The notes under the pieces: model-generated | What the model was told of the DNA's origin: nothing | The model's input: the letters and a program-made list of their open reading frames with translations, nothing else | The model's database searches: none | Source of the DNA: a virus | Virus record (IMG/VR): IMGVR_UViG_3300048694_001005 | Span: 1 to 64,000 of that record | Reading direction: 5' to 3' (one strand) | DNA length: 64,000 nt | Shown here: piece after piece, positions 54,224 to 62,810 of the stretch | Layout of the letters: the number at the start of each line of letters is the position of its first letter | How positions within the stretch are numbered: position 1 is the first letter of the stretch | Program-made: the position numbers and the translations under genes

Positions 54224-56767
54224 TTATGCCATATTAGCAGCCATTTGCTTCATAATACTATTACTATTTTTTATCTCTGCTAATATTTGGGCGTTTAAAT
54301 CTACGCCGCTGCGTACACTGTCCAGTTGATCCTGTGCCAGTTTGGCCGTTGTTTCGGAAGTTTTTTGCACGGCTCCGGAAGATGTATCACTTCCCGCAGC
54401 GAGTGCTAAACCAGTTGCTTTCGAGCTTAGACTTGTTGCTGGCGCTAATGTGGGTTCGGTTAAGGATTTTCCCTTACTTTCTATCCCTGTAATTTTGTCA
54501 ATTCCAGAAGCTAGCCAATCTTGTATTGGGGTATATTCATTTAATAAGGTTCCGGCTCCATATCCTGCTGCACCTGCAGCTAATGCACTGCTAGCCAATG
54601 TACCTGCTCCTACTGCACCTACGCTAGTGCCCAGAGTAGTTCCAAGTCCCCCTGCTAATCCAGCAGCTCTACTTCCTAGGTTTCCTAAAAATCCACCAAT
54701 TCTTCCTGCAAGACCTTTACCTCCCCCGGACTGTGCCATGTGTTCTGCAATCTGCGCTTTTGATGCGAATTTGCCTTTGTCTGTAATCCATTGACCTTTT
54801 TTATTTTGACGCAGCCCACCAGATCCTCCATCACCCGCTGGACTAGACCCGCCACCACTTGGACCTAAACTCTCTGGCCCACCTTGTCCAGATTTATTAA
54901 AGATACTGGGTATTTTAGACAACAGTCCTGGAATCATGGCTCCAACAACTGTAGTTATTACATCACCAATGCCACTCATTAGCGAATTTGTAATGGAACC
55001 TGAATCATTCAATTGTTTGGATATTGCTTCATTAATTCCTTTAAGTCCCGAAACATATGTATCCATGTGTTCTATCGCCATTTTCTGCAAGCCTACCATG
55101 GAATCTTGATATGCCTTTTCTGAGGCTAAGAATTTTTTAGTTAGATCATCCTGCGTTTCTGCTGCTTTACCTAATGTTGCTAATTGTTTTGCCAGTTGTT
55201 CAGGATCTAAATTCTTTGCGGCTTCTGCAAAAGTTTGATTCATACTAGCAGATAAGCCTTCCAAACCTCCCTTACCCGCAAAGCCAGCTAATCCTATTTC
55301 TTTTGTATTTTTTCTATCTTTGAGCGTTAATTCTTTAGTGTTTGCTTGTATCTTAAGAGTTTCTTCCTGTGTTAGTATACCCTTGTTGGCTTTATCGCTG
55401 AATTCACTTACGCTTTGTGAAAATCCACGATTAGTTGACATCATTATGGCACTTTCTTTGCTTATCGCCGTTCCAAAAAGCTGCATTTCCATAAAAGCTT
55501 TTTGTTGCATTGGACTCATTGCTGCCATCGCTCTCTGAATTTCTTCTGCTTGCTTTGCCGGCATCTCTGCTAGTTTATTTTGGAATGCCAAATTGTTTGC
55601 GGCATCACGTGCTTGTTGCATTTTTGATTTGGCTTCTTCGCCGCTTACCGCACTTAGTAAACGTAAGTCTTTTGCATACTTCTCTGTCTCCTGCATTATT
55701 TCTTTATCACTTAAGCTGCGACCTTTACCAAAACGATTTAAATTTCCCATTACTTCAGAAACTAAACCAGCTTGTTCTTCAAAACTATAACCTAAGTTTT
55801 GCAAACGAACTCCTACACCAGATTTGTCTATGTCTCCTTTAATTCTGGCCATACGTTCTGCCGCGGCAGTCATACCCATGCCACTTGCACCCAAACTTTT
55901 TGCATTTTCTGAAACTACTTTGCCAAACTGCTGAACCGTTAAACCTGCTTCACCGGCCGCATTTTTCATACCAGTCATACCATCAGCAAAAACAGCACCG
56001 GATTTACTTCCTGCTTGGAAACCGTCTCGTAATTGACCAAGTTGTTTGCCTAAAATTTCAACTGCAAACTTAGCAGCTTTTGCACCATTATCGGCAAGAC
56101 TTTCTAGTGCGCCACCAGCTAATGTTGCGGCAATACCAACAGTACGCAATTTGCCGCCGCTCTGCATAGCTGCTTGACCAAATGCACCTATTGATTTACC
56201 AGCAGAACTACCAGCAGCAGCGGCACCATCTATTGCCGCGTTCATTATAGCGCCACCGGTTTCTATTGCACCTGCATTACTAGTTAAATTTCTAGCTAAC
56301 CCACCAACAGCTCCAACAGTTATATTAGTAATGGTTTTACCAAAGTTTTTAAGTTCAGCTGTTGACTCTTCTACCGCAGCTTTTTTGGCCTGCTCCGCAG
56401 CAAGAGATTTTTTCTCTTCAATTTGTTTGAGTTTTTCTGTTGCATCTCTAAGATTACCAGTTTTTAACAAAGACTGGCGTTCTTCTTCCAATGCATCTAT
56501 ATTATCGTTTATTACCTTAACCGATTCCTTTAACCGGTTGGACCAAGTTCTATTTTTTTCTTCGCTGCTGATTAATCCAGCCTTGGCATTTTGAACAGCT
56601 TTATTGTAATCCGCAGACAGTTTTTTTGCAGCATCGAAATCTTTGATTATCTGCTGCGTGGCAGTGTTCAACCGCTTCAAAGACTTTTGGTATGCTTCCG
56701 ATTCGATACCAAAATTTTTGGCTTTTCCTAGCTCTTCAAGCAATTTGTTTAGTTCAGTTTGATCCAT
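54224..56767 (-). CDS. Tape-measure-like / gp29-like tail hub protein
   Basis: 847 aa Ala/Gly-rich helical protein next to baseplate hub genes; late box 56805-56812. Confidence 0.6.
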   Translation of the reverse strand: MDQTELNKLLEELGKAKNFGIESEAYQKSLKRLNTATQQIIKDFDAAKKLSADYNKAVQNAKAGLISSEEKNRTWSNRLKESVKVINDNIDALEEERQSLLKTGNLRDATEKLKQIEEKKSLAAEQAKKAAVEESTAELKNFGKTITNITVGAVGGLARNLTSNAGAIETGGAIMNAAIDGAAAAGSSAGKSIGAFGQAAMQSGGKLRTVGIAATLAGGALESLADNGAKAAKFAVEILGKQLGQLRDGFQAGSKSGAVFADGMTGMKNAAGEAGLTVQQFGKVVSENAKSLGASGMGMTAAAERMARIKGDIDKSGVGVRLQNLGYSFEEQAGLVSEVMGNLNRFGKGRSLSDKEIMQETEKYAKDLRLLSAVSGEEAKSKMQQARDAANNLAFQNKLAEMPAKQAEEIQRAMAAMSPMQQKAFMEMQLFGTAISKESAIMMSTNRGFSQSVSEFSDKANKGILTQEETLKIQANTKELTLKDRKNTKEIGLAGFAGKGGLEGLSASMNQTFAEAAKNLDPEQLAKQLATLGKAAETQDDLTKKFLASEKAYQDSMVGLQKMAIEHMDTYVSGLKGINEAISKQLNDSGSITNSLMSGIGDVITTVVGAMIPGLLSKIPSIFNKSGQGGPESLGPSGGGSSPAGDGGSGGLRQNKKGQWITDKGKFASKAQIAEHMAQSGGGKGLAGRIGGFLGNLGSRAAGLAGGLGTTLGTSVGAVGAGTLASSALAAGAAGYGAGTLLNEYTPIQDWLASGIDKITGIESKGKSLTEPTLAPATSLSSKATGLALAAGSDTSSGAVQKTSETTAKLAQDQLDSVRSGVDLNAQILAEIKNSNSIMKQMAANMA

Positions 56768-56823
56768 AGGGTAATTTCAAGTCATAAATAATAATAATAT
56801 CAATTATTTATAGGAATAATTCC

Positions 56824-57663
56824 ATGAGTTCAAACCCGCTTGCAAAACATTTTAGACAGCCATCAATCTATATTAAATTGCCCAGCCTGGGTAAATTTTG
56901 GCCAGAAGGCAGCTTAGATTTACCAATAACTGGAGAATTACCAGTTTACCCTATGACCACCAAGGATGAGATTGTGCTTCGTACCCCAGATGCCCTAATG
57001 AATGGTGCTGGATTAGTTGAGACCATACAAAGTTGCTGCCCAAATGTTAAAAATGCATGGGTAGCACCCAATGTTGACATTGATGCCCTACTAATAGCTA
57101 TAAGAATCGCTAGTTATGGACATGACATGGATTTTGATTCTGACTGCCCGCATTGCCAAAAGTCTAATACCTATAGCATTGATTTGAGATTAGCACTTGA
57201 TTCTGTCAAATGCCCAGATTATACACAGCCATTAGATGTTGATAATTTGAAAATCATGCTGAAACCGCAGCCTTATCAACAGGCAAACGAAGCTAATACA
57301 CTGGGTTTTGAAGAACAACGTATGGTTATGTCTATAAATGAGTCTGATTTAGCGACCGAAGAAAAGGTAGCTGCGTTGGCCCAGAGGATGAAACGTTTGG
57401 CAGATATAACAACAGACATATTAACAAAAAGCACGGCTTACATTGTAGCAGAAGATGGGACTAAAGTCGATAACACAGAGCACATAAAGGAATTTTATCA
57501 AAATGCCCAGTCTACTATAATTAAGAAACTGCAGGACAAAGTTGAAGATTTGGCAAAAGAAGCTAATATAAAACCATACGCGGTAAAATGCAATGAATGT
57601 GGCGAAAATTACGAAATGGCAATTGAGTTTAATTATTCAAGTTTTTTCGGCGTAGGCTTTTGA
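56824..57663 (+). CDS. gp26: Baseplate hub subunit (gp26-like)
   Basis: YIKLPS, PMTTKDEI, D.LLIAIRIASYG, CPHC...CNEC. Confidence 0.75.
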   Translation: MSSNPLAKHFRQPSIYIKLPSLGKFWPEGSLDLPITGELPVYPMTTKDEIVLRTPDALMNGAGLVETIQSCCPNVKNAWVAPNVDIDALLIAIRIASYGHDMDFDSDCPHCQKSNTYSIDLRLALDSVKCPDYTQPLDVDNLKIMLKPQPYQQANEANTLGFEEQRMVMSINESDLATEEKVAALAQRMKRLADITTDILTKSTAYIVAEDGTKVDNTEHIKEFYQNAQSTIIKKLQDKVEDLAKEANIKPYAVKCNECGENYEMAIEFNYSSFFGVGF

Positions 57664-57878
57664 CATTAGATAACGACGCTATCATAGCAATGCTTGATGG
57701 CTATGATAAAGAATCAAAGGCCTTAAAAACAGAAGCGTTAAAGTTTTGTTGGTATATGCGAGGCGGTCTTACCTACACCGAAGCCATGGACCTAAGCAAG
57801 GCCGAACGTGAAATCGTAGCTAAAATTGTAGAAGACAATATAGAAACTACAAAAAAGTCAGGGTTACCCTTCTTTTAG
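57660..57878 (+). CDS. Baseplate hub assembly protein (gp51-like)
   Basis: WYMRGGLTYTEAMDLS..ERE motif; follows gp26. Confidence 0.55.
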   Translation: MTLDNDAIIAMLDGYDKESKALKTEALKFCWYMRGGLTYTEAMDLSKAEREIVAKIVEDNIETTKKSGLPFF

Positions 57879-57899
57879 AAGCCATAGTTATACACACAA

Positions 57900-58375
57900 T
57901 TATTTTATTTTAGGTATTCTTTAAAGATGTGCTAACGCACATCTGCATTTCGCTTACGCTCATGCATTTTGTTGATACCTTAATTGCTTTTAAGACTGTA
58001 TGCTTTTGACTGTGGTATTCATCCAGATCAATCAGTCATAATATGCCTTGACAGACATATTATGAAAGAAACGCTTCATCCGAGTCGTTACAGTCACTGA
58101 TCTAAAGAGATTACAAATTTATTTGCACGGACGCGGTTGATCGGTACGCCCTACTCTAGCATTGCTTGTTATCAACGGGACCTACATTACACGGATCAGC
58201 GGCGTAATGTAAGTTATGGGTTGTGCCTGTTTCACAGAGCCCAAGATCCTTTGGAGCCTAAGGTAGTTCTTGCCTTGCAACACCTGAAATCCGACGGCAT
58301 CAGCTGACTGGCAGTCTCGACAGGGGTCTAGCAGCCTAGACCAAACGCGGTTGCTATGTATTGCCTAAATTATTC
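57900..58375 (-). ncRNA. Candidate large structured non-coding RNA
   Basis: About 470 nt with no ORF in the track; at least six hairpins, several extended by G.U pairs only on the minus strand. Confidence 0.5.
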
Positions 58376-59440
58376 TTAAGATTTGAGCTTACAATTGTCT
58401 AAATGATATCGTGCCATATTTGATGTACCGCCCATTTTGCCACAATGCGGGCATGTAACCTGAATTTGTGGGCCCTTGGGCTTACGCATTTTTTGTTTAG
58501 TTTCTTCTGTTAATATTTTGCCTTTTTTACTTTTGCCTATATTTAGTTTCCACTGTGCCTTTTGCTCTTCGGTCATTTTGTAATAACAAGGTTTGCCATA
58601 CATGCCATTATCTTTGCCTTCGTGACGCATTTTTTCTTTTACCACTGCCAATTCTTCCTCAGTTAAATTTGCGAATGGGTGCCGACCAAACATACCATTA
58701 TCTTTGCCTTTATGTGCCATTTTTGATTTTGCTACAATTAATTCTTCTTCGGTTAGTTTTTCAAAAGGATGTGTTCCATATCTTGGACTCAACATACCTT
58801 TTCGACCATACATTGGATTGTTAACCCCTCTATAATTCTGATTCAACCAGGCCTCATATTCTTCATCGGTTTTATTTCTTTTTGTTGAATTATTTTCTCC
58901 CAACCTAAATTTTGCTCTGTAATTTTCCTTCTCTTCCTCAAGCATACCATGCTCCCAAAGAAAGTTTTCATTTGGGTATCTGTCCTTAATCAAAGTCCAC
59001 AGTCTTGATGCCTCCTCGTCACTTTCTTCGTGCGGCGGCAAAAACTTAATTGGAGGAATAATAGCATTGTAATAACGCCGCTCGCCATTGGGCAATTTTG
59101 TTCTTAATGCATCTTCCACGATCATTTTTTCAACCTCCGCATAGGTCAATGCCGCTTTTGATTTATGAAGTGATTCAATAATAAAAACGAATCGAGATTT
59201 TCCATGCTCTTTAATCAATTTATTAATCGTTTCGGAAGAACTAGTATATGTTTTCCAATCAGATTCTTTGGTGGTCCAAACTTTGTTTTTCCTACTTTTG
59301 AGACGTTTGCTTCTCTTACTAAAAAATAATTTTTTCCCAATGTACTCTCGAGAAGTTTCAGTATCAATTATCCTATATATAAACCCAACCCATTCATTAA
59401 CGTCAAATTTTTTTGGATATTGCCAATGTCCTAAATCCAT
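58376..59440 (-). CDS. GIY-YIG endonuclease with NUMOD3-like repeats and C-terminal Zn ribbon
   Basis: GFIYRI...EYIGKK, WKTYTSSS; 30-aa repeats GKDNGM(F/Y)G; CPHC...HLDNC. Confidence 0.8.
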   Translation of the reverse strand: MDLGHWQYPKKFDVNEWVGFIYRIIDTETSREYIGKKLFFSKRSKRLKSRKNKVWTTKESDWKTYTSSSETINKLIKEHGKSRFVFIIESLHKSKAALTYAEVEKMIVEDALRTKLPNGERRYYNAIIPPIKFLPPHEESDEEASRLWTLIKDRYPNENFLWEHGMLEEEKENYRAKFRLGENNSTKRNKTDEEYEAWLNQNYRGVNNPMYGRKGMLSPRYGTHPFEKLTEEELIVAKSKMAHKGKDNGMFGRHPFANLTEEELAVVKEKMRHEGKDNGMYGKPCYYKMTEEQKAQWKLNIGKSKKGKILTEETKQKMRKPKGPQIQVTCPHCGKMGGTSNMARYHLDNCKLKS

Positions 59441-59446
59441 AAAAGC

Positions 59447-59474
59447 CTCCAGTATATTTATTTATACACTGGAG
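59447..59474 (-). promoter_or_regulatory. Late promoter inside an RBS-sequestering hairpin
   Basis: CTCCAGTGTAT-AAATAA-ATATACTGGAG (11 bp, one G.U) containing TATAAATA (59466-59459) and the GGAG of the SD. Confidence 0.75.
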
Positions 59475-59492
59475 CTCTTTTTGGCAAAATAC

Positions 59493-59678
59493 TTACTTAG
59501 CTGACATAGCGTTTTTCTTGTCCTGGATCTCACCACGACGAACTTTAGTTAGTTTTGCAAGCTCGCTTAGTGCTTTACGGGCACGACCAGCAGCGGCTTT
59601 AACGCCCTTGATCTCAAAACTGTCCTGTTCCTTTTTGTATGCATCAACGGCTGCTAGAATTTGTTCATGTGTTGTCAT
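59493..59678 (-). CDS. Histone H1-like (Hc1-family) small basic protein
   Basis: KGVKAAAGRARKALSELAKLTKVRRGE resembles the Hc1/HctA core; AAGGAG SD. Confidence 0.6.
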   Translation of the reverse strand: MTTHEQILAAVDAYKKEQDSFEIKGVKAAAGRARKALSELAKLTKVRRGEIQDKKNAMSAK

Positions 59679-59730
59679 TGCTATCTCCTTGTAATCTTAA
59701 TTAGTGCTACCAATTTGACCTGTAATATTT

Positions 59731-61734
59731 CTAAATATTTGCTATTTCCGTACTGGTTTCATACGTGGTAAAGCCATTTTCTTTGATGACTCGTAGTATA
59801 TTGTTTACCCTACCTGCTAATTCATCCTTGTGACTTACTAACCAAACACTTTTATTGAGCTCACGACTCATGCGTTTAAGCATACCTAGTGCATTATCTA
59901 CGCCGCTACTATCCAGACCGCTGTCAATTAGCTCGTCAATAAACATGAGATTAATGGGCTGATATAAACTTTCCCAAACATCACGAAATGCCCAGCTAAG
60001 GCTCAGTATCAGTCGTGTTCTTTCGCCCCTCGATAAATTATCAAAGTCCAGCTCACGGCCCAGTTCTGTGATCTCAACTGTGAGGTCATTCATAAAGGTT
60101 ACAGTATGTGGCAACCCAATACGTTCCAAATACTGGCTTAGACGTGTATTCAAATAGCCTAAGTTTTGATCAATGATGCGTTTACGTACAAAGCTATCTT
60201 TGTTGGTCAGCAATTTAAGCAAAAACTCCTGATGCTCACGTAACATTTCCAATTGATTGATGGTTTCATAGTTAATCTCAATCACGGCTTTGTTCTGCAT
60301 CTCGTCGATTTGCTCGACGTAGGGATCAGTTTCGTTTTCTTTGTTTTCAAGATCCCTAACTAGTCCATCCAACCGGTTTTTATGATCCAATGCATCCGCC
60401 AGCGTATCATAAAACACTTTGGGCATGGCGCCCAGGGCTCCTAGCTGTTTTAGTGATGCGTTATGCTCTTTTTCCTCTGCATCAGACCGGTTCCACTGCG
60501 TTTCTGCTTCCGTCAGTGACTCTTGTTTGTCTCTGCGGATTTCTTCCTGCTTGCCATCATGTATAGTTTGTCCACAAGCATAGCATTCGTGATTATCCAG
60601 TGATGCGATCTCTTTGCGCAGCTTTTCCTGAGCTTTTTCTAACTTAGCTTTATCATCTGCAGACTGTTTAATCAGCTTTTTGCATTCATCAATTTGCTTC
60701 TTGCGTTCGTTATAAGCATCAAGGTCACGATGTAGTTGTAATTCTTGCTCAATGTCTATGTTTACTAGATCGCCTATGGATCTAGACAGTTTGGCCTTGT
60801 CTTCTTCGTGTTTATTCTGCCACAGCCGCTGTCTACGCTCTAGTGATTCAATTTGTTCCTTGATTCTCGCATTGGCTTCTTCTGTGGCCTTAATCTTGTA
60901 TTGTTCCTGGGTAATGAGATCTTTGGTATCTTTGATTTGCTCTTTGAGATGATCAGCTTTTTCACTTAGCAGTGTAATACCCAGCAGTTGCTCAATGATA
61001 CTGCGCTGGTCAGCTGCTCTAAGACTTAGGAACGGCTCAGTATAAGTGTTTAGCGCCACGATATGCTTAAACATATCAGGGCTGATACTTAATATACGTT
61101 CTATTTCCTGTTGTGTTTCGCGGCTGTCGCCCTGACTTTCGTCAGCTTCGTTATTTGCAGCATCTACTCGCTCAACGTCATTTACATAAAACTTCAGCAG
61201 TGTGGGTTTACGACCGCGCTCAATGCGATAGTGGTTGCCGCCATGCTCAAAATCCACTGTGACCAGCATGTTTTTGCCGTTGGTCTTATTAATAAGATTG
61301 TCTTTTTTGATATTGGTTAGTGCATTGCCAAATAACCCATAGCTAAGAGCATTGGCAATAGTAGTATTGTGCGACAGAATCCCATTGGTATAGTATCTGT
61401 GTTCATCAGAATTAACGGCAATGTCAAACATATTTTCTTCTTGTTCAGAAGCTTGTATGTCTGATACTTTCTCTAACCCATCAATGGTTTGAATAAATGA
61501 ATTAAGCCTAATGTCTTTTACAAAAATTTCGTTGAATTCATCATTAAATAAAATATGATCGTCCGCGCACCTGAGATTTTTCCCTGATTCGGTTTTGACC
61601 GTCCATACATGATATGGAATTGTTTTATGTATGGACGTAATGGGACTCCATCCAGAATCTGTTTCAATCTCTAAATTTTTTAGATTTACAGAGTTGATAA
61701 ATTTTCTATTTACGATGTCAGAAATTGAATGCAT
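59731..61734 (-). CDS. gp46: gp46/SbcC C-terminal part fused to a split-intein IntC
   Basis: aa 1-123 intein (ADDH, MFDI, SHN|T), then coiled coil, CYAC hook, LSRGE signature and FIDE Walker B. Confidence 0.9.
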   Translation of the reverse strand: MHSISDIVNRKFINSVNLKNLEIETDSGWSPITSIHKTIPYHVWTVKTESGKNLRCADDHILFNDEFNEIFVKDIRLNSFIQTIDGLEKVSDIQASEQEENMFDIAVNSDEHRYYTNGILSHNTTIANALSYGLFGNALTNIKKDNLINKTNGKNMLVTVDFEHGGNHYRIERGRKPTLLKFYVNDVERVDAANNEADESQGDSRETQQEIERILSISPDMFKHIVALNTYTEPFLSLRAADQRSIIEQLLGITLLSEKADHLKEQIKDTKDLITQEQYKIKATEEANARIKEQIESLERRQRLWQNKHEEDKAKLSRSIGDLVNIDIEQELQLHRDLDAYNERKKQIDECKKLIKQSADDKAKLEKAQEKLRKEIASLDNHECYACGQTIHDGKQEEIRRDKQESLTEAETQWNRSDAEEKEHNASLKQLGALGAMPKVFYDTLADALDHKNRLDGLVRDLENKENETDPYVEQIDEMQNKAVIEINYETINQLEMLREHQEFLLKLLTNKDSFVRKRIIDQNLGYLNTRLSQYLERIGLPHTVTFMNDLTVEITELGRELDFDNLSRGERTRLILSLSWAFRDVWESLYQPINLMFIDELIDSGLDSSGVDNALGMLKRMSRELNKSVWLVSHKDELAGRVNNILRVIKENGFTTYETSTEIANI
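61366..61734 (-). mobile_element. Split intein C-fragment (123 aa)
   Basis: Block B LRCADDH, block F MFDIAV, terminal ILSHN with Thr at +1. Confidence 0.88.
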
Positions 61735-62810
61735 TTTTTAATTGTTTCCTTTTGATTTTTCTTGAAATCATGTTCCCAGATAATTAAAACTTCATATCCT
61801 TGATCACGAGCACATTGTAATTTTACAGCATCTGATGCCCATTTATCAATAGATTTAACTTTAGTTCTTGGATTTATAAAATCTGGCGAATATATAGAAG
61901 GGTTAGAGTGCCAAAAATCACCATTATATTCTATGATTTTATTATTGGCCATAATATCATAGATGTATTGTTTTTTACCTGATTCATGTAAAGTAAATTG
62001 ATGTATGGCATCTGGTATTGTTTCTTTTATTGCTTTCAGTATTAATTTTTCTGCTTTTGAAACAGTAATTCCTTTAGTTAACTTTAAACGATTAATTCTA
62101 GACTTTTCTTCTGCGGATTTGGAATTTAAGGTGCCCTGCCATTTATTTTGTCGATCTTGCCAAATCTTCATCCCCTCATTTTCTCCATATTTTTGTACGC
62201 ATATTTCTTTTGAAAAATATTTTTGCGAGTTTGACAACATGAGTGCTGACTCTTCTGCGGAATATCCCCTAGCAGTATAGTATTCAATACATCGAGGTGA
62301 TGAAACTCGATGTAAGTTTGATCTAGATTTTTTTTCGGCACCTAATTTATTATTGGACCTTTTCGTTTCTTTAGCTAATTTAATAGCTTCTTCAAGAGAA
62401 AATCCTTTGTTGATCCAATACTCTTTCCTAATCGGCCTTCGACTATTTCTTTCTTGATCAGCTTCGTCCTCGGTATAGTTTTTTCCGGTTATGGGATTGA
62501 TCTTGTTAAGCCAAAAATTTCTGCTATAAACACTACACGGATTCCCTGATTTATGTTTTTTGGCCTTTATATGCGACTCCTCATAGGTCCAGCCTCGTGA
62601 TAACCAATAAGATTTTGTGCGTGGCGCAGCATTGGTTGTTAGGTTTAATTTTTGACGAATGAATTGCTCAATAATTTTCTTGTTGTTTTCAATTTTGATA
62701 CTCAACAAGTCGACTAACAATTTTTGATACAGATCAGGATTTAAATTTTTGATAGTTTGTTCCATTACTTCTTGACAATTAACTTTGAGTTCTTTGTTCC
62801 AGCGCGGCAT
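61710..62810 (-). CDS. Vsr-like homing endonuclease between the two gp46 halves
   Basis: IIEYNGDFWH...YEVLIIWEHD; repeated YWxxRG/YYxxRG units; visibly AT-rich; overlaps both flanking genes. Confidence 0.8.
   Translation of the reverse strand: MPRWNKELKVNCQEVMEQTIKNLNPDLYQKLLVDLLSIKIENNKKIIEQFIRQKLNLTTNAAPRTKSYWLSRGWTYEESHIKAKKHKSGNPCSVYSRNFWLNKINPITGKNYTEDEADQERNSRRPIRKEYWINKGFSLEEAIKLAKETKRSNNKLGAEKKSRSNLHRVSSPRCIEYYTARGYSAEESALMLSNSQKYFSKEICVQKYGENEGMKIWQDRQNKWQGTLNSKSAEEKSRINRLKLTKGITVSKAEKLILKAIKETIPDAIHQFTLHESGKKQYIYDIMANNKIIEYNGDFWHSNPSIYSPDFINPRTKVKSIDKWASDAVKLQCARDQGYEVLIIWEHDFKKNQKETIKKCIQFLTS

What the first reader, a model, noticed from the sequence alone, without database searches (positions are those of the whole stretch)
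57900..58375. ~470-nt hairpin-dense non-coding element directly downstream of a GIY-YIG nuclease: candidate RNP partner RNA
This is the largest ORF-free gap in the window. Seen: stems at 57925-57944 (8 bp), 57944-57966 (5 bp), 58036-58065 (10 bp, 13 with G.U on minus), 58183-58211 (8 bp, extended by G.U on minus), 58325-58342 (7 bp) and CUG-UGAAA-CAG (58227-58237). There is also a 9-nt direct repeat CAACCGCGU (58345-58353, 58131-58139) and possible pseudoknot pairings (GAUCAGU/ACUGAUU crossing UGACUGU/ACAGUCA). The wobble bias favours an RNA on the minus strand, co-transcribed from the late promoter of the nuclease whose stop codon abuts it. It does not interrupt a gene and lacks group I/II or RNase P signatures that I could recognise. 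Inference: a nuclease-associated structured RNA, by analogy to HEARO/omegaRNA arrangements but with a GIY-YIG enzyme. Alternatively a replication-origin or packaging-related element.
Basis: partly seen in the sequence, partly recalled or inferred. Interest (0 to 1): 0.8.

Follow-up and report, generated by a model that had tools for sequence, protein, structure and literature searches.

The report
Twin-box structured phage RNA, variant
The gene-free gap encodes a real, roughly 440-base, doubly knotted non-coding RNA on the minus strand of an uncultured giant T4-like phage; it belongs to a large phage RNA family of which only another subtype's first third is catalogued (Rfam Polynucleobacter-1), its job is unknown, and the nuclease gene beside it looks like a neighbour, not a partner.

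Summary
Window 57879-58375 is the largest ORF-free gap, and it encodes a conserved structured RNA on the minus strand, about 58368 to 57925. I found homologues in about 160 IMG/VR phage contigs (123 distinct full-length copies) and one probably mis-binned MAG contig, always convergent with the gp26/gp51-like baseplate-hub genes.

Covariation supports three domains and two pseudoknots (0 of 500 shuffles reach the observed score in any of three tests). G.U pairs outnumber A.C pairs 362 to 105 when read on the minus strand.

About half the family starts with Rfam RF01718 (Polynucleobacter-1, function unknown). The window's copy has a different, also covarying, 5' domain and no Rfam match.

Two loops carry the same 7-mer (RGAURAN; GGAUGAA here). 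The two copies are identical in 116 of 117 RNAs across eight variants, with no complement in the RNA or locus.

The gene directly upstream is a GIY-YIG protein in 77 of 106 loci. However, a relative with a 99% identical RNA has a PD-(D/E)XK gene there. Homologues of the small GIY-YIG occur in 494 cultured-phage records; the four whole genomes searched lack the RNA. A nuclease-guide role is therefore not supported.

This scan has already reported this twin-box RNA family on other genomes.

The parts
57925..58368 (-). Whole structured RNA, about 444 nt, read 58368 to 57925. The ends are inferred from conservation, not mapped.
   Evidence: Homology with L002 breaks at about 58368-58369. An HMM built from C-type relatives only matches 57918-58202 at E 3.6e-18. 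CM R1 matches on the minus strand only.
58214..58368 (-). 5' domain, 'type 2' (not RF01718). Helices: P1 58277-58281 with 58350-58354; Pa hairpin 58325-58342; Pc 58283-58286 with 58321-58324; Pe 58217-58220 with 58240-58243; Pf 58222-58225 with 58233-58236.
   Evidence: MAFFT alignment A6 of 39 relatives: 84.4% of cells paired against 68.2% in shuffles, 24 of 29 pairs with changes on both sides, covariation 0.392 against 0.140, 0 of 500 shuffles as high. Pairs verified in the window. No RF01718 hit.
58095..58235 (-). Central double-pseudoknot domain. Helices: Hb 58181-58213; He 58129-58151; Hd 58106-58109 with 58154-58157; PK1 58136-58141 with 58171-58176; PK2 58097-58102 with 58194-58199.
   Evidence: CM R1 gives 57.9 bits, E 1.3e-8. 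On A5, 80.3% of cells are paired against 65.5% in shuffles and 33 of 38 pairs have double changes, 0 of 500 shuffles as high. PK2 was not in the model, yet 6 of 7 of its pairs covary. Own-partner complementarity averages 6.6 nt against 4.4 nt for swapped partners.
58075..58081 (-). Box 1: the 7-mer GGAUGAA in the conserved loop ACUC-GGAUGAA-G. The closing stem Pm1 (58070-58073 with 58086-58089) is only weakly supported.
   Evidence: The Pm1 stem is not supported by the family alignment.
58036..58065 (-). P3 hairpin, lying between the two boxes.
   Evidence: 86% of cells paired on A7. It is among the top mutual-information pairs. 10 bp in the window.
58018..58024 (-). Box 2: the 7-mer GGAUGAA, identical to box 1.
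   Evidence: The two boxes are identical in 116 of 117 RNAs across eight variants (19.7 expected if independent). Mutual information between the twin positions roughly equals their entropy and is low with every other column.
57944..57966 (-). H2 hairpin. Its conserved apical module is GA-GC-GNRA-GC-GAA (GAGCGUAAGCGAA here).
   Evidence: Stem 90% paired with 6 of 6 pairs compensated. The inner 2 bp are 98.7% paired and both compensated.
57925..57944 (-). H1, the 3'-terminal hairpin next to the gp51-like gene.
   Evidence: 96.2% paired, 7 of 8 pairs compensated.
58376..59440 (-). SegE-type GIY-YIG endonuclease gene (354 aa), directly upstream of the RNA on the same strand. Probably a recent mobile replacement of a PDDEXK_15 gene.
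   Evidence: Pfam PF19835, E 2.9e-30. L002 has PDDEXK_15 at this position. No PDDEXK_15 homologue elsewhere in the 180-kb record.
56824..57878 (+). gp26-like (56824-57663) and gp51-like (57660-57878) baseplate-hub genes, convergent with the RNA. They are the most constant neighbours on that side.
   Evidence: Pfam T4_baseplate. Both genes were found next to the element wherever the flank was long enough; in a few loci another gene lies between gp51 and the element.

Best explanation
The gap encodes a roughly 440-nt independently folding non-coding RNA on the minus strand. It belongs to a large family of uncultured T4-like (often jumbo) phages that this scan has called the twin-box or extended Polynucleobacter-1 RNA.

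Shown:
- There are three covarying domains. The compact central domain is tied by two pseudoknots.
- GNRA-type loops appear on the minus strand in most relatives. The window has one, the GUAA cap of H2.
- The 3' domain displays the same 7-nt box twice, on either side of hairpin P3.
- The window's copy differs from the Rfam-catalogued subtype by having another 5' domain.

Inferred:
- It is transcribed as the 3' end of the leftward unit (gp46-like, Hc1-like, nuclease slot), because a co-oriented gene's stop codon abuts it in nearly all loci and no conserved promoter precedes it.
- It ends at the stable H2/H1 hairpins facing gp51.

Most likely mechanism (inference, about 35%): it acts in trans as a scaffold whose two identical boxes are read by one partner with two equivalent sites, such as a dimeric protein or a repeated nucleic acid encoded elsewhere in the phage. 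This would explain why both boxes always change together.

The adjacent nuclease gene is best read as a syntenic neighbour occupying a swappable slot, not an obligate partner.
For: Family size and position.

Strand: plus the 38 G.U pairs at one He position. CM hits fall on one strand only. RF01718 has the same orientation in relatives.

Covariation: central domain, including PK2, which was not modelled; 3' domain; 5' domain on a plain MAFFT alignment. In all three tests, 0 of 500 shuffles reach the observed covariation score, and slid controls score far lower.

Homology of the window's copy to RF01718-bearing RNAs: HMM from C-type only, E 3.6e-18; R1, E 1.3e-8.

Twin boxes.

Co-oriented upstream gene in 109 of 112 loci.

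Neighbour not partner.

Phage-specific: only 1 of 80 pattern-matching bacterial loci scores with R1.
Against: - There is no expression data, so the RNA ends, the promoter and even transcription itself are inferred.
- A5 was aligned to the model's nested helices, which biases counts toward them (PK2 and A6 are free of this).
- PK1 counts are depressed by a 1-nt misregister of type-2 rows and rest partly on inspection by eye.
- 85% of loci do have a nuclease-family gene directly upstream, so a lineage-specific functional tie cannot be excluded.
Confidence: 0.8

Rival explanations
1. The RNA is the partner of the nuclease encoded just upstream (GIY-YIG, or PD-(D/E)XK in some lineages), acting as guide, scaffold, activator or inhibitor. 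This would be a ribonucleoprotein analogous to omegaRNA-TnpB/IscB.
For: A nuclease-family gene is directly upstream and co-oriented in 90 of 106 distinct loci (77 GIY-YIG, mostly about 143 aa and lacking a DNA-binding domain; 13 PDDEXK_15). The stop codon abuts the RNA. Twin boxes would suit a dimeric enzyme.
Against: - The same RNA (99% identical) follows unrelated nucleases in the window and in L002.
- 16 of 106 neighbours matched neither nuclease family in Pfam.
- Homologues of the small GIY-YIG occur in 494 cultured-phage records, and the four whole genomes searched have no RNA core.
- No GIY-YIG column covaries with the box variants beyond control level (a weak test).
- No hypervariable guide-like segment was seen.
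- All loci also share gp51 and gp46 synteny, so adjacency alone is not specific.
Confidence: 0.08
2. It is a cis-acting 3'-end element. It would stabilise or terminate the leftward transcript and insulate it from the convergent late gp26-gp51 unit, with H1/H2 and the T-run serving as a terminator for the plus-strand genes.
For: It always sits between convergent units. H1 and H2 abut the gp51 stop in most loci, and H2 is followed by a T-run on the plus strand. There is no conserved promoter of its own: the homology break lies at the RNA's 5' edge, and the only sigma-70-like site lies inside the window-specific SegE gene.
Against: About 440 nt with two covarying pseudoknots, conserved loops and concerted twin boxes is far more than a terminator or 3' stabiliser needs. 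No U-run follows H1 on the minus strand. H1 and H2 stay with the core where another gene is inserted after gp51.
Confidence: 0.15
3. It is a ribozyme or ligand-sensing RNA, for example self-processing to release itself from the mRNA.
For: The size, pseudoknots, GNRA loops and invariant single-stranded blocks (CAACCGC, CCGUUG) are typical of catalytic or ligand-binding RNAs. The 5' edge lies a few nucleotides after the upstream stop codon.
Against: There is no match to any Rfam ribozyme or riboswitch, even at E up to 10. There is no downstream gene to regulate on its strand. The identity covariation of the boxes is not explained by this reading.
Confidence: 0.1
4. It is a DNA-level element (replication origin, packaging site or iteron array). 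The twin boxes would be direct repeats bound by a DNA-binding protein.
For: Identity covariation of direct repeats is typical of iterons.
Against: The strong asymmetry of G.U over A.C pairs, GNRA loops on one strand only and long-range compensatory pairs, including pseudoknots, point to a single-stranded RNA fold. The two boxes lie in an otherwise helix-dense RNA and are not part of an AT-rich unwinding region.
Confidence: 0.04

Closest known systems
Polynucleobacter-1 RNA motif (Rfam RF01718; Weinberg et al. 2010, Genome Biol 11:R31, PMC2864571)
   Same: RF01718 is the 5' domain of about half of the homologous RNAs, found in 7 of 13 sampled loci at 66-118 bits and in the same orientation. Those RNAs share the central and 3' domains with the window's RNA. 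Weinberg's supplement also places the motif downstream of a conserved phage-like gene family, with function unknown.
   Different: The 141-nt Rfam model covers only the first third of those RNAs. The window's copy has no RF01718 match, even at E up to 10, and carries a different covarying 5' domain. The pseudoknotted core, the twin boxes and H2/H1 are absent from Rfam and were not found in the paper library.
HEARO / omegaRNA of IscB-TnpB systems
   Same: Both are large structured RNAs encoded immediately next to a nuclease gene on the same strand.
   Different: There is no Rfam HEARO match. The enzyme is a GIY-YIG or PD-(D/E)XK nuclease, not a RuvC nuclease. There are no transposon ends and no guide segment was seen. 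The RNA and the nuclease family each occur without the other.
GOLLD and ROOL (large ornate RNAs of phages and prophages)
   Same: All are large, pseudoknotted, phage-borne RNAs of unknown function found by comparative genomics. This resemblance is recalled from general knowledge, not tested.
   Different: There is no sequence or CM similarity. This RNA is smaller (about 440 nt) and has a different genomic context, a convergent junction beside baseplate-hub genes rather than tRNA clusters.
cow-rumen-2 RNA motif (Rfam RF02947)
   Same: There is a weak sub-threshold resemblance to the central domain around the ACAGGA-AACC hairpin (20.2 bits, E 0.26).
   Different: The score is far below the gathering threshold of 66 bits and is probably chance. 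This is not evidence of membership.

Membership tests
Rfam RF01718 Polynucleobacter-1 | Covariance-model score at or above the gathering threshold of 37 bits. | tested here: not met
   No RF01718 hit in window 56500-60000 at E up to 10. Relatives L008, L160, L145, L093, L128, L078 and L007 score 66-118 bits.
Extended Polynucleobacter-1 / twin-box phage RNA (family defined in this scan, not public) | Central domain: Hb, Hd and He helices with the invariant CAACCGC loop. | tested here: met
   CM R1 matches window 58095-58235 on the minus strand at 57.9 bits, E 1.3e-8. An HMM built without the window's subgroup gives E 3.6e-18.
Extended Polynucleobacter-1 / twin-box phage RNA (family defined in this scan, not public) | Two pseudoknots: PK1 (GUUGNN with NNCAAC) and PK2 (Hb loop with the tail before GUGACUG). 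| tested here: met
   In the window both are 6 Watson-Crick pairs. PK2 covaries at 6 of 7 pairs. PK1 covaries between subgroups by inspection.
Extended Polynucleobacter-1 / twin-box phage RNA (family defined in this scan, not public) | Two identical 7-nt boxes (RGAURAN) flanking hairpin P3. | tested here: met
   GGAUGAA at 58075-58081 and at 58018-58024. Family-wide the boxes are identical in 116 of 117 RNAs.
Extended Polynucleobacter-1 / twin-box phage RNA (family defined in this scan, not public) | 3' hairpins H2 (loop GAGCGNNAGCGAA) and H1, convergent with gp51, and a co-oriented gene directly upstream. | tested here: met
HEARO / omegaRNA-type nuclease guide RNA | Obligate co-occurrence with one nuclease family. 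| tested here: not met
   L002, L003 and the B-type loci carry PDDEXK_15 instead. Homologues of the GIY-YIG protein occur in 494 phage records, and the four whole genomes searched lack the RNA core.
HEARO / omegaRNA-type nuclease guide RNA | A variable guide segment matching a target, and RNA-dependent cleavage. | not testable with these tools
   No guide-like hypervariable terminal segment was noticed. Biochemistry is needed.
tRNA / tmRNA / RNase P / group I-II introns | Detection by ARAGORN or the Rfam models. | tested here: not met
   ARAGORN finds no genes in the window. Rfam finds nothing.

The most novel reading that the evidence does not exclude
The swappable nuclease slot plus the RNA form a lineage-specific ribonucleoprotein. 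In this reading the twin boxes dock two protomers of a minimal GIY-YIG (or PD-(D/E)XK) nuclease that has no DNA-binding domain of its own, and the RNA targets or restrains it. This would be an RNA-dependent DNA nuclease of a class not yet known to use RNA.
Probability: 0.05. Interest if true: 0.9.

Novelty: new variant of a known kind. Interest (0 to 1): 0.55.

Why it matters
Large RNAs with several covarying pseudoknots and no known function are rare, and in the past they have turned out to be ribozymes or cores of RNA-protein machines.

It sits at a fixed place in uncultured T4-like phages. Public databases hold only a 141-nt fragment of one subtype.

The window shows two new things. The catalogued 5' domain can be exchanged for another folded domain while the core is kept. 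The neighbouring nuclease gene can be swapped without touching the RNA, which argues against the most tempting reading, an RNA-guided nuclease.

The twin boxes always change together yet have no complement nearby. This is an unusual kind of covariation and gives a concrete handle for finding the RNA's partner.

Tried and rejected
1. **Plus-strand reading.** UNCG-like loops and T-runs first suggested the plus strand. I rejected this after the MFE, alifold and G.U versus A.C tests.
2. **Early dismissal of any nuclease link.** I based this on L002/L003 and a tblastn that missed the small GIY-YIG genes. The Pfam scan of all neighbours corrected it.
3. **Invalid search.** One search used wrong coordinates. 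I repeated it; there is no blastn match in cultured phages.
4. **MAFFT Q-INS-i** was unavailable. A whole-length MAFFT alignment of 123 copies was too gappy, and anchor regexes were unreliable. I used per-domain alignments and a CM instead.
5. **Complement of the boxes.** No consistent complement was found within the RNA or within each fetched locus on either strand. No third RNA column covaries with them.
6. **Coevolution of boxes with the GIY-YIG protein.** No signal above the gp51 control. The test is weak and not corrected for phylogeny.
7. **Pattern scan of bacterial genomes.** 120 hits, almost all chance; only 1 of 80 was confirmed by CM.
8. **Pm1 stem closing box 1.** Not supported by the family alignment.
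9. **Literature.** No paper describes the full RNA. Fremin et al. 2023 (PMC10690425) has no supplementary text held, so I could not check whether it overlaps their 10,006 candidates.
10. **PDB search of the small GIY-YIG.** No significant match, so identity with T4 endonuclease II is suggested only by gene position.

Full report
**Setting.** The window is part of a 180.5-kb IMG/VR virus record with a CheckV completeness of 51%. Around the finding lie:
- a gp26-like baseplate hub gene (56824-57663, +) and a gp51-like gene (57660-57878, +);
- the gap (57879-58375);
- a SegE-type GIY-YIG gene (58376-59440, -);
- an Hc1-like gene (59493-59678, -);
- a gp46/SbcC-like gene (59731-61734, -).

The hub protein is about 30% identical to those of jumbo phages such as PA5oct, Atu_ph07 and RaK2. 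The gap is the largest ORF-free stretch in the window. Rfam at E up to 10, ARAGORN and blastn against cultured phages find nothing in it.

**A large family.** The hub protein led to a relative, L002, whose gap is 99% identical (5 substitutions over the shared ~490 nt). It also led to more distant relatives (63% hub identity) that keep long nucleotide blocks of the gap.

In every locus with enough flank, the element lies next to gp26-gp51, usually directly after the gp51 stop; in a few loci another gene lies between. Of 80 bacterial loci that match the same pattern, only one (a 4.4-kb MAG contig) scores with the covariance model. The RNA is therefore phage-specific and the model is selective.

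**Strand.** I first leaned to the plus strand. Four tests then pointed to the minus strand:
- MFE is lower on the minus strand in 104 of 123 copies, by 8.6 kcal/mol on average.
- RNAalifold energy is better on the minus strand in each subgroup: -93.7 against -86.6, -103.2 against -73.2, and -83.9 against -61.1.
- Helices hold 362 G.U against 105 A.C pairs.
- One He pair is A-U in 40 rows and G.U in 38 rows.

GNRA loops (GCGA, GUGA, GAAA) appear only on the minus strand. The covariance model hits one strand only. The Rfam model that matches relatives has the same orientation.

**Structure (minus strand, 58368 to 57925).**
- *5' domain (58368-58214).* Helices P1, Pa, Pc, Pe and Pf. On a plain MAFFT alignment of 39 relatives, 84.4% of cells pair against 68.2% in shuffles. 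24 of 29 pairs show changes on both sides. The covariation score is 0.392 against 0.140 (0 of 500 shuffles as high; slid controls 0.04-0.13).
- *Central domain (58235-58095).* Helices Hb, Hd and He plus two pseudoknots. PK1 joins GUUGAU (58176-58171) to AUCAAC in the He loop (58141-58136). It reads GUUGAC/GUCAAC or GUUGU/ACAAC in other subgroups. PK2 joins the Hb loop (58199-58194) to the tail (58102-58097). PK2 was not part of the model, yet 6 of its 7 pairs covary. There are 44 distinct loops, and they match their own tails better than swapped ones (6.6 against 4.4 nt). Overall, 80.3% of cells pair against 65.5% in shuffles, and 33 of 38 pairs have double changes.
- *3' domain (58094-57925).* It holds box 1 in a conserved loop, hairpin P3, box 2, a variable A-rich linker, H2 and H1. 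H2's apical module GA-GC-GNRA-GC-GAA is conserved. H1 is 96% paired, H2 90% and the inner module 99%, nearly all pairs compensated.

All these pairs are present in the window.

**Twin boxes.** The 7-mer RGAURAN occurs twice, 48-62 nt apart. The two copies are identical in 116 of 117 RNAs, where 19.7 would be expected if they were independent. There are eight variants, each found in several clusters. Mutual information between the twin positions roughly equals their entropy and is low with every other column of the RNA. No consistent complement exists in the RNA or within each fetched locus. This is identity covariation, not complementary covariation. It implies either one reader with two equivalent sites or a symmetric contact between the boxes.

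**Relation to what is known.** A gathering-threshold Rfam scan of 13 family members found RF01718 (Polynucleobacter-1, 141 nt) in seven of them. It forms the 5' domain of those RNAs. Weinberg et al. 2010 described 16 examples from lake and estuary data and one Polynucleobacter genome. These lay downstream of a phage-like gene family, with no function assigned. No other paper in the library mentions the motif.

The window's subgroup and several others have a different 5' domain and no Rfam match. They are nonetheless clearly homologous in the rest of the RNA: an HMM built only from RF01718-type copies gives E 3.6e-18, and R1 gives E 1.3e-8. Earlier reports of this scan describe the same twin-box RNA on other genomes. 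I reached the same features independently before reading them.

**The nuclease question.** The nearest gene beyond the RNA's 5' end is co-oriented in 109 of 112 loci, and its stop codon abuts the RNA. Among 106 distinct neighbours, 77 are SegE-type GIY-YIG proteins (mostly about 143 aa, catalytic domain only) and 13 are PDDEXK_15 nucleases. Five observations argue against a partnership:
- The RNA is unchanged when the nuclease differs. The window has a 354-aa SegE where L002 has PDDEXK_15, and homology breaks at the RNA's edge.
- The window also has a probable intein in gp46 that L002 lacks, so this is a zone of recent mobile-element traffic.
- Homologues of the small GIY-YIG occur in 494 cultured-phage records. 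In the four examined (cyanophage P-RSM4, Melnitz, phiN3, ACP17) no long gap follows the gene; in Melnitz and P-RSM4 it lies near nrd genes. No R1 match exists in those four whole genomes.
- No protein column tracks the box variants better than a control protein does.
- All loci share the wider synteny, so adjacency alone is not specific.

**How it probably works.** It is shown to be a real, conserved, multi-domain RNA fold. Transcription as the tail of the leftward unit is inferred: there is no conserved promoter, and the only sigma-70-like site lies inside the window-specific SegE gene. The 3' end is inferred to be protected by H2/H1.

My best guess, at about one in three, is a trans-acting scaffold that presents two identical boxes to a two-site partner. 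The alternatives are a cis-acting 3'-end or insulator element, a ribozyme or sensor, a nuclease partner, and a DNA-level element. They are listed with odds under rival explanations.

**Verdict.** The finding is real. It is a subtype of a family of which public databases hold only part of another subtype. Its function is unknown, the nuclease-guide reading is unlikely, and this scan has already reported the family repeatedly.

Noticed in passing
window 59731-61734 (-) and 61710-62810 (-): The gp46/SbcC-like gene appears to be interrupted by an intein. Residues 124-667 are 99% identical to residues 53-596 of the uninterrupted L002 protein. The junction reads ...SHN|TT, an intein-like C-terminal end, at the Walker A region. 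There is also a weak Pfam Intein_splicing hit.
   Followed up: partly
window 58376-59440 (-) compared with L002:5542-6045: ORF-for-ORF swap in the slot between the Hc1-like gene and the RNA: a 354-aa SegE-type GIY-YIG gene in the window against a 167-aa PDDEXK_15 nuclease gene in the 99%-identical relative. No PDDEXK_15 homologue lies elsewhere in the 180-kb record.
   Followed up: yes
window 59493-59678 (-): A 61-aa protein matches the chlamydial histone H1-like Hc1 family (Pfam PF07432, E 1.2e-9). It is conserved in L002 and L003 next to the gp46-like gene.
   Followed up: no
L003:5161-5394 (+) and L004: An extra 77-aa predicted membrane protein gene is inserted between gp51 and the H1 end of the RNA in these relatives. 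H1 and H2 stay with the RNA.
   Followed up: no
L293 (Melnitz), L296 (P-RSM4), L294, L295: The roughly 143-aa GIY-YIG protein family is widespread in cultured T4-like phages and is often annotated 'NAD synthetase'. In Melnitz and P-RSM4 it lies beside or near nrdA/nrdB or nrdB, the position of denA (endonuclease II) in T4 as I recall it. The PDB sequence search did not confirm identity with EndoII.
   Followed up: partly
L008:748-848 (+): Sub-threshold resemblance of the central domain to Rfam cow-rumen-2 (RF02947, 20 bits, E 0.26). Probably chance.
   Followed up: no
window 57967-58017: The window and L002 have a roughly 45-nt longer linker between box 2 and H2 than most relatives. It includes a window-specific stem, UGACUG/CAGUCA, that encloses box 2.
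   Followed up: no
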